This document shows positions 16,790-17,420 of a DNA stretch of 64,000 nucleotides, one piece after another (the first letter of the stretch is position 1; each line of letters starts with the position of its first letter). The stretch lies in assembly GCA_009914755.4 (NCBI GenBank), contig CP068257.2, positions 40,608,001-40,672,000 of the forward strand, read 5' to 3'. The position numbers and the translations under genes are program-made. This stretch comes from the human T2T-CHM13v2.0 reference genome, Homo sapiens. The notes beneath the pieces are model-generated. The model saw only the letters and a list, made by a program, of their open reading frames with translations, was not told where the DNA came from and did no database searches.

Positions 16790-17420
16790 TGGACGCAGGG
16801 TGACGTTCGCGCTCTTGCCCGAGCTCAACGCCCGGGAGAAAACAGCGCTGCCGGAGCCCCTCGCGCGCGCAGGTGCGGGCGGGGCGGGTGCGCGCTGCCG
16901 CGCGTGTGCAGCGCCCGCCCATCCGCCGCCACCGCCCGCGCCGGGGTTACTACCGGTCAACGCTCGCTAGTAACCTCCGCGGCGGAGCGGCGGCGCGGGG
17001 AGCGGCGCGATTGGCTGCGGGCGCCCCGCGCTGTTGCCAAGCGCGAGGAGGCAGCTGCAGCCCCGAGCGGGGTCGCAGCCTCCCTGGGACAGGGGCGGCC
17101 CTATGCATAGGGGATCACCCGGGCCATGCAAATCCCGGCGCCCCGCGCGTGCTGGTGTTCTCCTCCCCAGGTCCAGGAACACCGGTCCAGGAAGCCTGAG
17201 AGCGCTGGCAGTAGGAAGGGTCGCCAGTGTGGACCTGAGGGTGGAGGTGTTGCCACCCGGGGCGGCCTGCGCTCCATTCAGGCTTGAGCGGTGACTGGGA
17301 GACCCCGGGAATGGAAATGGCGCTCAAATGCTGGTGTGGTGTCCGCAGGGGAACGGCCCGCGGGTGTGTGGAGTCTGCGCCCCTGTGGCTTCAGCTGCGT
17401 CGGGGGACTGCGGGAATCTT
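16790..17420. promoter_or_regulatory. ABCG1: Intragenic CpG island with promoter-like motifs (inverted CCAAT 17010-17014, GC box 16881-16888, octamer ATGCAAAT 17126-17133). Candidate alternative or internal ABCG1 promoter
   Basis: About 630 bp of very CpG-rich sequence (gcgggcggggcgggtgcgcgctgccgcgcgtg ... gcggcgcgATTGGctgcgggcgccccgcg ... gggccATGCAAATcccggcgccccgcgcg) surrounded by CpG-poor intron DNA. Confidence 0.6.
16944..16959. promoter_or_regulatory. ABCG1: DR4 element GGGTTActacCGGTCA inside the intragenic CpG island. ABCA1-type LXRE candidate
   Basis: 14/16 identical to the ABCA1 promoter DR4 read as AGGTTActatCGGTCA. It is embedded in an 8-bp inverted repeat, GGTTACTA(16945-16952)...TAGTAACC(16969-16976). 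Confidence 0.5.

What the first reader, a model, noticed from the sequence alone, without database searches (positions are those of the whole stretch)
16790..17420. Orphan intragenic CpG island with CCAAT, GC-box and octamer motifs, a candidate internal ABCG1 promoter and methylation hotspot
About 630 bp of CpG-dense DNA lies 9 kb downstream of exon 2, deep in the 45-kb intron. It carries an inverted CCAAT (17010-17014), the GC box GGGGCGGG (16881-16888) and a perfect octamer ATGCAAAT (17126-17133), which is the architecture of a TATA-less promoter. From memory, an LXR-activated internal promoter that produces an alternative ABCG1 N-terminus has been described, and the most-replicated blood EWAS CpG for triglycerides, BMI and T2D (cg06500161) lies on the shore of an intragenic ABCG1 island. 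I cannot verify either mapping here.
Basis: partly seen in the sequence, partly recalled or inferred. Interest (0 to 1): 0.6.

Follow-up and report, generated by a model that had tools for sequence, protein, structure and literature searches.

The report
Sterol-responsive CpG island inside ABCG1
This is a real, evolutionarily conserved CpG island in the large intron of the human cholesterol-transporter gene ABCG1; its conserved core is a binding-site motif for the sterol sensor LXR, and well-replicated blood methylation markers for triglycerides, BMI and diabetes lie in and around it, all of which fits published knowledge of this locus.

Summary
Window 16790-17420 is a CpG island (GC 0.72, CpG o/e 0.93 against 0.32 window-wide), and all three motifs sit where stated. 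The window is human ABCG1. Published bisulfite primers and probe coordinates fix it at hg19 chr21:43,638,054-43,702,053, so the island is chr21:43,654,843-43,655,473.

cg06500161 lies 1,114 bp downstream (Illumina "South shore"). cg07397296 is inside the island, and cg01176028 and cg01881899 are upstream. cg27243685 belongs to the shore of the other, 5' island.

The island's core, invariant in human, kangaroo rat, mole-rat and hamster, is a DR4 element, GGGTTActacCGGTCA (16944-16959). It is followed by an inverted third half-site and then the conserved ATTGG. The octamer is not conserved, and the GC box occurs at chance level.

In hamster the CpG island has eroded but this core persists. The best reading is an LXR/RXR-responsive regulatory module of ABCG1. 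It is probably the internal promoter region of Kennedy et al. 2001, though I could not read that paper and no TSS data were available. It may act as promoter, intronic enhancer, or both.

Already known in kind; low-to-moderate interest.

The parts
16790..17420 (.). By sliding-window criteria it extends to 16635-17558.
   Evidence: GC 0.716, 75 CpG, o/e 0.93. A syntenic island is present in Dipodomys (L001 11356-12442, o/e 0.85) and Fukomys (L003 9417-10065). It is eroded in Cricetulus.
16944..16959 (+). DR4 nuclear-receptor element GGGTTActacCGGTCA, a candidate LXR/RXR response element.
   Evidence: scan; P=0.002 in island shuffles. Conserved as AGGTTACTACCGGTCA (Dipodomys), GGGTTACTCTCGGTCA (Fukomys) and GGGTTACTATCGGTCA (Cricetulus).
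16945..16977 (.). Ultra-conserved 33-bp core GGTTACTACCGGTCAACGCTCGCTAGTAACCTC. It combines the DR4 with an inverted third half-site (TAACCT = AGGTTA on the minus strand), forming an 8-bp inverted repeat GGTTACTA/TAGTAACC.
   Evidence: Alignment A3: 29 of 33 positions are invariant in four species. Inverted repeat I3.
17010..17015 (-). Inverted CCAAT box (ATTGGC), a candidate NF-Y site 50 bp downstream of the DR4.
   Evidence: Invariant in human, Dipodomys, Fukomys and Cricetulus. By count alone it is at chance level.
17031..17041 (+). Conserved CTGTTGCCAAG block; binding factor unknown.
   Evidence: CTGTTGC is invariant in four species.
17158..17174 (+). Conserved pyrimidine tract plus CAG|GTCCAG. 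It resembles a 3' splice acceptor; the exon would start at 17169.
   Evidence: C.CCCAGGTC is invariant in four species. The function is inferred only.
16881..16888 (+).
   Evidence: Present but at chance level. It reads GGGGCAGGTG in Fukomys and Cricetulus and is absent in Dipodomys.
17126..17133 (+).
   Evidence: Present and unlikely by composition (P=0.004), but not conserved in any of three rodents.
17263..17264 (+). CpG of 450K probe cg07397296, inside the island; about 27% methylated in whole blood.
   Evidence: Coordinate chr21:43655316 and methylation level from PMC5792223. It lands on a CpG.
18534..18535 (+). CpG of cg06500161, on the south shore; about 66% methylated in blood.
   Evidence: Pyrosequencing primers of PMC8627066 map uniquely with 0 mismatches. 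'South shore' in PMC4721061. Methylation level.
15181..15182 (+). CpG of cg01176028, on the north shore; associated with triglycerides.
   Evidence: Coordinate 43,653,234 in PMC5618541 Table 1. It lands on a CpG.

Best explanation
The feature is a conserved, largely unmethylated intragenic CpG island in the 45-kb intron of human ABCG1. It most likely works as a sterol-responsive cis-regulatory module.

Proposed mechanism:
1. An LXR/RXR heterodimer binds the DR4 element GGGTTActacCGGTCA at the island's core.
2. Oxysterol-activated LXR recruits co-activators.
3. The adjacent NF-Y-type CCAAT box and the Sp1-type GC hexamers, in the permissive chromatin of a CpG island, support transcription. This would be initiation of an internal ABCG1 transcript in the sense direction, activation of the upstream ABCG1 promoters by looping, or both.
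4. The flanking shores (cg06500161, cg01176028, cg01881899) and the island's 3' edge (cg07397296) carry intermediate methylation. Published data report that this methylation varies with blood lipids, BMI and diabetes risk and is inversely related to ABCG1 mRNA. On this reading it reports or modulates the module's activity.

Shown here: the island, its mapping, the probe positions, the DR4 and CCAAT motifs, and their conservation.
Inferred: LXR occupancy of this particular site, transcription initiation at the island, and any causal link to methylation.
For: - Island statistics.
- Mapping to hg19: two primer sets and five probe coordinates fit one offset, and all five land on CpGs. The background CpG frequency is 2.1% of positions.
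- Syntenic CpG island in Dipodomys and Fukomys.
- A 33-bp core with the DR4 is invariant in four species spanning primates and three rodent suborders.
- In hamster the CpG island has decayed (o/e 0.35-0.5) but the DR4, CCAAT and two further blocks persist. Selection therefore acts on the factor sites.
- DR4 chance probability inside the island is 0.002. It is the only one of four DR4-like sites in the window found in every species with sequence at that position.
- The element matches the LXR DR4 definition quoted in PMC3295715. From memory, it is 14/16 identical to the ABCA1 promoter LXRE TGACCGatagTAACCT; the hamster copy is 15/16.
- ABCG1 is an LXR target. Its locus is an LXR ChIP-seq hotspot with 14 peaks, and one binding location holds a high-scoring DR4.
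- LXREs and an LXR-activated internal promoter in ABCG1 are published (citations).
- Mouse Abcg1 enhancers are LXR/RXR-induced, make eRNA and loop to the promoter.
- Methylation gradient: 27% inside the island against 66% on the shore.
- cg06500161 methylation is inversely related to ABCG1 mRNA.
Against: - There are no position-resolved LXR ChIP data for this site. The supplementary peak list was truncated.
- There is no TSS, CAGE, H3K4me3 or transcript evidence.
- The only in-frame ORF from the island to the next coding exon is ATG 17328 to donor 17445, MLVWCPQ...NQR|GYKTLL. It is not in the protein collection, although the two control isoforms are, and it is not conserved in rodents.
- GC skew and the 5'ss/PAS pattern downstream agree with sense transcription but do not differ from the rest of this plus-strand gene.
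- Conservation outside Euarchontoglires could not be tested. The bat assembly has a gap exactly there, and the muntjac and seal loci do not reach it.
- The link to Kennedy's exon 8 rests on my memory of the abstract ('9 kb ... intron 7 and part of exon 8'), not on a text I could read.
Confidence: 0.72

Rival explanations
1. Pure intronic enhancer. The island binds LXR/RXR and activates the upstream ABCG1 promoters by looping. It produces at most short unstable enhancer RNAs, and no ABCG1 mRNA starts here.
For: - The conserved part is a compact cluster of factor sites, and the CpG-island character itself is dispensable in hamster.
- No coding first exon was detectable.
- Mouse Abcg1 is controlled by LXR/RXR enhancers with eRNA and looping.
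- The review literature speaks of multiple LXREs through the gene and of LXRE-A and LXRE-B.
- Illumina annotates the shore probe cg06500161 as gene 'Body'.
Against: - CpG islands with CCAAT and Sp1 motifs are typical of promoters.
- A paper reports an LXR-activated internal promoter in this gene, and the distance from exon 2 fits my recollection of it.
- Enhancer and promoter activity are not mutually exclusive.
Confidence: 0.3
2. Promoter of a separate transcript, such as an antisense or non-coding RNA, unrelated to ABCG1 protein isoforms.
For: - Orphan CpG islands often drive non-coding transcripts (general knowledge).
- No conserved ORF leaves the island.
Against: - No Rfam family was found in 15500-19500.
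- Antisense polyadenylation signals lie within 900 nt upstream and none lie in the sense direction for 2 kb. That favours sense elongation, though only weakly.
- The LXRE fits ABCG1's own regulation.
Confidence: 0.06
3. Functionally inert CpG-rich DNA, for example from biased gene conversion, with motifs present by chance.
For: - CCAAT and the GC box occur at chance frequency.
- The octamer is not conserved.
Against: - A 33-bp core is invariant across four species, together with three further invariant blocks, while the flanks are 60-70% identical.
- The island is retained at the syntenic place in two rodents.
- The DR4 has P=0.002.
Confidence: 0.02

Closest known systems
LXR-activated internal promoter of human ABCG1 (Kennedy et al., J Biol Chem 2001; PMID 11500512)
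   Same: Same gene. The element is LXR-linked. From memory of the abstract, the LXR-responsive reporter held about 9 kb of 'intron 7 and part of exon 8'. The island starts 8.8 kb after the exon that would be exon 7, and a conserved acceptor-like site would make that intron 9,197 bp.
   Different: I could not read the paper, so the identity of the island with that promoter is unverified. No alternative coding N-terminus could be traced to the island.
ABCA1 promoter DR4 LXRE (TGACCGatagTAACCT; Costet et al. 2000, recalled from memory)
   Same: The half-sites are nearly the same and in the same order. The minus strand reads TGACCGgtagTAACCC in human and TGACCGatagTAACCC in hamster. Both genes are cholesterol-efflux transporters and LXR targets.
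   Different: The ABCA1 element lies in a proximal promoter. This one lies 15.6 kb downstream of the MACL first coding exon, inside an intron, and carries an extra conserved inverted half-site.
ABCG1 LXRE-A and LXRE-B (Sabol et al., J Lipid Res 2005)
   Same: These are DR4 elements in introns downstream of the ABCG1 promoter that mediate LXR induction (described).
   Different: Their sequences and positions could not be checked. The window holds other DR4s that may be those elements: 8397 (perfect AGGTCAgtctAGGTCA), 29097 and 33086.
Orphan (intragenic) CpG islands acting as alternative promoters (general class)
   Same: It is CpG-dense, conserved and intragenic, it is mostly unmethylated where measured, and its shores show variable methylation.
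   Different: Whether it truly lacks an annotated TSS, and whether it initiates transcription, could not be tested here.

Membership tests
CpG island | Length >=500 bp, GC >=55%, CpG observed/expected >=0.65 (Takai-Jones); also meets Gardiner-Garden & Frommer. | tested here: met
   631 bp, GC 0.716, o/e 0.93; broad 924 bp, GC 0.67, o/e 0.84.
CpG island | Unmethylated in normal tissue. | tested here: inconclusive
   Only one probe lies inside it. cg07397296, at the 3' edge, is about 27% methylated in blood against 66% on the shore. There are no data for the core.
Orphan CpG island | No annotated transcription start site at the island. | not testable with these tools
   No human transcript annotation is available. 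No protein isoform with an N-terminus from the island was found, which says nothing about non-coding first exons.
Promoter | Transcription initiation (CAGE, 5'RACE) and H3K4me3. | not testable with these tools
   Only indirect sequence cues are available: no sense PAS for 2 kb and 5' splice sites at 17445, 17637 and 17672. These do not discriminate.
   ATTGGC is invariant in four species, although its count is at chance level. NF-Y binding was not tested.
   Chance-level occurrence (P=0.23). It reads GGGGCAGGTG in two rodents and is absent in a third. GGGCGG hexamers are mildly enriched, 6 vs 2.5.
   ATGCAAAT is not conserved in Dipodomys, Fukomys or Cricetulus. Conservation within primates was not tested.
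LXR response element (DR4) | Two direct RGKTYA-type half-sites spaced by 4 nt. | tested here: met
   GGGTTA ctac CGGTCA at 16944-16959. The second half-site starts with C, as I recall for the ABCA1 LXRE.
LXR response element (DR4) | Evolutionary conservation of the element. | tested here: met
   Both half-sites are identical in four species, apart from G/A at the first base in Dipodomys.
LXR response element (DR4) | LXR/RXR binding (EMSA or ChIP) and ligand-dependent activation. | not testable with these tools
   Only locus-level data exist: the ABCG1 region is an LXR hotspot with 14 peaks and a high-scoring DR4. The peak coordinates were not retrievable.
CpG-island shore of EWAS probe cg06500161 | Probe within 2 kb of this island and no other. 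| tested here: met
   The CpG is at 18534, 976-1,114 bp from the island edge. The next island is over 7 kb away. Illumina annotates it 'South shore'.
CpG-island shore of EWAS probe cg27243685 | Probe within 2 kb of this island. | tested here: not met
   The CpG is at 4313, 1,510 bp downstream of the 5' island 822-2803 and 12.5 kb from this island.

The most novel reading that the evidence does not exclude
The four replicated metabolic EWAS CpGs that bracket this island (cg01881899, cg01176028, cg07397296, cg06500161) may be a direct readout of LXR/RXR occupancy at the single conserved DR4 in its core. Sterol or lipid load would change LXR activity at this module. That would shift the boundary between the unmethylated island and its methylated shores, so blood ABCG1 methylation would be a quantitative sensor of cellular sterol signalling rather than an independent epigenetic cause. 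A further possibility is that the conserved three-half-site arrangement (DR4 plus an inverted half-site 12 nt away) binds more than one nuclear-receptor dimer.
Probability: 0.25. Interest if true: 0.55.

Novelty: already known. Interest (0 to 1): 0.25.

Why it matters
ABCG1 methylation at cg06500161 is among the most replicated blood epigenetic markers of triglycerides, BMI, insulin resistance and future type 2 diabetes. Placing that CpG 1.6 kb from a deeply conserved LXR-type element in the neighbouring CpG island gives a concrete, testable cis-regulatory explanation for the inverse link between methylation and ABCG1 expression. The locus, its LXR regulation and the EWAS signals are all already published. 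What this work adds is the base-level link between them and a correction of which motifs in the island are under selection.

Tried and rejected
1. Alternative N-terminus exon at window 39,013-39,027 ('CDVLS|gtaatt'), suggested by bear and seal isoforms. Rejected: the seal locus shows that 'MAGNECDVLSA' is simply intron sequence directly upstream of the GYKTLLKG exon in a truncated gene model.

2. In-frame ORF from the island to the next coding exon (MLVWCPQGNGPRVCGVCAPVASAASGDCGNLPDSSLNQR|GYKTLL; ATG 17328, donor 17445).
- It is not in the protein collection, by word search (a weak negative, since the tool retrieved nothing at all).
- It is not found by exact look-up of the two hypothetical isoforms, while both control isoforms were found.
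- It is not conserved in rodents.

3. Structured RNA in or near the island: no Rfam hit except a sub-threshold miRNA model at 19259.

4. GC skew as a TSS indicator. Skew is positive downstream of about 17,200, but most of this plus-strand gene has positive skew, so it does not discriminate.

5. Pigeon DR4 AGGTTActatCGTTCA in the same intron (L004 24939). There is no flanking similarity and no CpG island, so homology cannot be claimed.

6. Fetching more orthologues.
- Five look-ups failed because the queried protein was not on record; the collection stores only the longest isoform per gene.
- The bat locus has an assembly gap at the island.
- The muntjac loci start at exon 3.
- Two metagenome scans for the conserved core gave only two chance soil hits.

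7. Literature.
- Kennedy 2001, Sabol 2005, Pfeiffer 2015, Guay 2014 and Ding 2015 are not held.
- A search for the DR4 string found only an unrelated paper.
- The LXR ChIP-seq peak table of PMC3295715 is truncated before chr21.
- One protein search was wasted on an E-value cut-off that was too strict, and one paper search on loose term logic.

Full report
**Observation**

The stretch 16790-17420 is a genuine CpG island of 631 bp, with GC 0.716, 75 CpGs and observed/expected 0.93. The window as a whole has o/e 0.32. With sliding 200-bp windows the island spans 16635-17558. It is one of only two large islands in the 64 kb; the other is 822-2803.

In 2000 dinucleotide-preserving shuffles of the island, the results were as follows:
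- A CCAAT/ATTGG is expected by chance (P=0.46).
- So is GGGGCGGG (P=0.23).
- GGGCGG hexamers are mildly enriched (6 vs 2.5).
- The octamer is compositionally unexpected (P=0.004).

**Identity and mapping**

tblastn with the ABCG1 protein places its exons as follows:
- MACLMAAFSVGTAM at 1320-1361.
- The NASSYS... exon at 7728-7971.
- The GYKTLLKG exon from 52927.
- Two further exons downstream.

The query was recalled from memory. An exact look-up later showed that the 678- and 666-aa sequences are NP_004906.3 and NP_058198.2.

The bisulfite pyrosequencing primers published with hg19 coordinates in PMC8627066 map uniquely and without mismatch:
- The cg06500161 assay reads the CpGs at window 18534 and 18537.
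- The cg27243685 assay reads 4282, 4300 and 4313.

The 14,221-bp spacing agrees, giving hg19 = window + 43,638,053. With that single offset, cg07397296 (chr21:43655316), cg01176028 (43,653,234) and cg01881899 (coordinate from memory) also land exactly on CpGs. Only 2.1% of window positions are the C of a CpG. The island is therefore chr21:43,654,843-43,655,473.

**EWAS claim**

- cg06500161 lies 1,114 bp downstream of the island. The Illumina annotation quoted in PMC4721061 is gene 'Body', 'South shore'.
- cg07397296 lies inside the island at 17263 and is about 27% methylated in blood, against about 66% for cg06500161.
- cg01176028 and cg01881899 lie 1.6 and 2.1 kb upstream.

All four are reported to associate with triglycerides, BMI or insulin traits, and methylation is inversely related to ABCG1 mRNA. 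So 'methylation hotspot' is fair. cg27243685, however, belongs to the shore of the 5' island (window 4313).

**What the island contains**

I fetched orthologous ABCG1 loci from four mammals:
- Kangaroo rat, Dipodomys (L001).
- Flying fox, Pteropus (L002).
- Damaraland mole-rat, Fukomys (L003).
- Chinese hamster, Cricetulus (L006).

A CpG island sits at the syntenic place in Dipodomys (1,087 bp, o/e 0.85, the strongest in that locus) and in Fukomys. The bat assembly has a gap exactly there. In hamster the island has eroded to o/e 0.35-0.5.

Flanking DNA aligns at 60-70% identity. Against that background, four blocks are invariant in all four species:
- GGTTACT..CGGTCAA.GCTCGC.AGTAACCTC (human 16945-16977).
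- ATTGGC (17010-17015).
- CTGTTGC (17031-17037).
- C.CCCAGGTC (17162-17172).

The first block is a DR4 nuclear-receptor element, GGGTTActacCGGTCA (16944-16959). It is followed 12 nt later by an inverted third half-site. Its probability in island shuffles is 0.002. Of the four DR4-like sites in the window (8397, 16944, 29097, 33086; about 1.8 expected by chance), it is the only one present in every species with sequence at that position.

The element fits the LXR/RXR DR4 definition. From memory, it is 14/16 identical to the ABCA1 promoter LXRE; the hamster copy is 15/16.

The GC box reads GGGGCAGGTG in two of them.

**Mechanism**

ABCG1 is a classical LXR target. Its locus is an LXR ChIP-seq hotspot with 14 peaks, and it has a binding location with a high-scoring DR4. 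Reviews describe multiple LXREs through the gene, LXRE-A and LXRE-B, and an LXR-activated internal promoter (Kennedy 2001; title cited). Mouse Abcg1 enhancers are LXR/RXR-induced, make eRNA and loop to the promoter.

The best-supported reading is that the island is an LXR/RXR-responsive regulatory module of ABCG1. The DR4 confers sterol responsiveness. The CCAAT box, the GC hexamers and CpG-island chromatin support transcription. The shores carry activity-linked methylation.

My recollection of Kennedy's abstract is that the reporter held about 9 kb, 'intron 7 and part of exon 8'. That fits the 8.8-9.2 kb between exon 2 of the window and the island, where a conserved acceptor-like site would start an exon at 17169. 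This is a lead from memory only, because the paper is not held.

**Limits**

I could not test transcription initiation. The evidence that bears on it is weak or negative:
- The only in-frame ORF from the island to the next coding exon (ATG 17328 to donor 17445) is not in the protein collection, although both control isoforms are. It is also not conserved.
- GC skew and the 5'ss/PAS pattern are compatible with sense transcription but do not discriminate.
- No structured RNA family matches.

Promoter versus enhancer therefore stays open, and the two are not exclusive. Conservation outside primates and rodents is untested.

**Verdict**

The thing is of a known kind in a heavily studied locus. This check contributes three things:
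- Base-level mapping of the window and the probes.
- Identification of the conserved DR4/CCAAT core.
- The finding that the factor sites persist in hamster where the CpG island has eroded.

Interest is low to moderate.

Noticed in passing
window 2029-2100 (+): A second alternative first coding exon, MRISLPRAPERDGGVSASSLLDTV (92% identical to the N-terminus of a gibbon ABCG1 isoform, P0004). It lies inside the 5' CpG island about 700 bp downstream of the MACLMAAFSVGTAM exon (1320-1361), so one island holds two alternative first exons.
   Followed up: partly
window 8397-8412 (-): A perfect DR4, AGGTCAgtctAGGTCA, 425 bp into the 45-kb intron. It is conserved in Pteropus (AGGTCActcgAGGTCA), while one half-site is lost in Fukomys. 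It is a candidate for one of the published ABCG1 LXREs.
   Followed up: partly
window 29097-29112 (-) and 33086-33101 (-): Two more DR4-like elements deep in the intron, AGTTTAtaatAGTTCA and TGGTCAggcaAGTTCA. Their conservation was not examined.
   Followed up: no
window 20541-20900; L001 15852-16140; L006 17588-17920: The best-conserved non-coding block near the island (76-80% identity to Dipodomys and Cricetulus). Both rodents carry a DR4, AGGTTAatgt[AG]GGTCA, within their aligned block. Human has the weaker AGGTTGatgcAGGTTA at about 20757, but the base-level correspondence of these sites was not checked by alignment.
   Followed up: partly
L006 15400-15800 (Cricetulus) versus window 16790-17420: The CpG island has eroded in hamster (GC 0.57-0.60, o/e 0.35-0.5) while the DR4, CCAAT and two other blocks stay invariant. 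This is an example of CpG-island loss with retention of factor sites.
   Followed up: yes
L002 16640-17960 (Pteropus); L003 about 9670-9800 (Fukomys): Older assemblies have runs of N exactly at the GC-rich island, and Fukomys shows a duplicated flank around its gap. These are assembly artefacts that hide the element.
   Followed up: yes
window 18534-18538: The cg06500161 CpG itself is not deeply conserved: Fukomys keeps the first CpG only, and Pteropus has TG. The flanking 100 bp is moderately conserved.
   Followed up: partly
window 49130-49871; 39892-40349; 58448-58674; 46226-46404; 27853-27961: Minisatellites and simple repeats in the introns: a 22-bp unit x34, a CT-rich array, a 15-bp unit x15, (CATC)n, and a 36-bp unit x3. 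They explain the extreme AT and GC skews in those 1-kb bins.
   Followed up: no
window 25833-26187: A small third CpG-rich patch (355 bp, GC 0.53, o/e 0.79) in the same intron. Not examined further.
   Followed up: no
L005 10001-10043 (Weddell seal) = window about 52892-52926: Seal and polar-bear 'ABCG1-like' proteins starting MAGNECDVLSA are truncated gene models that read through the intron just upstream of the GYKTLLKG exon. They are not a real alternative exon.
   Followed up: yes
L004 24939-24954 (Columba livia): Pigeon has AGGTTActatCGTTCA in the corresponding large intron. The context is AT-rich, with no island and no flanking similarity, so homology to the mammalian element is undetermined.
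   Followed up: partly
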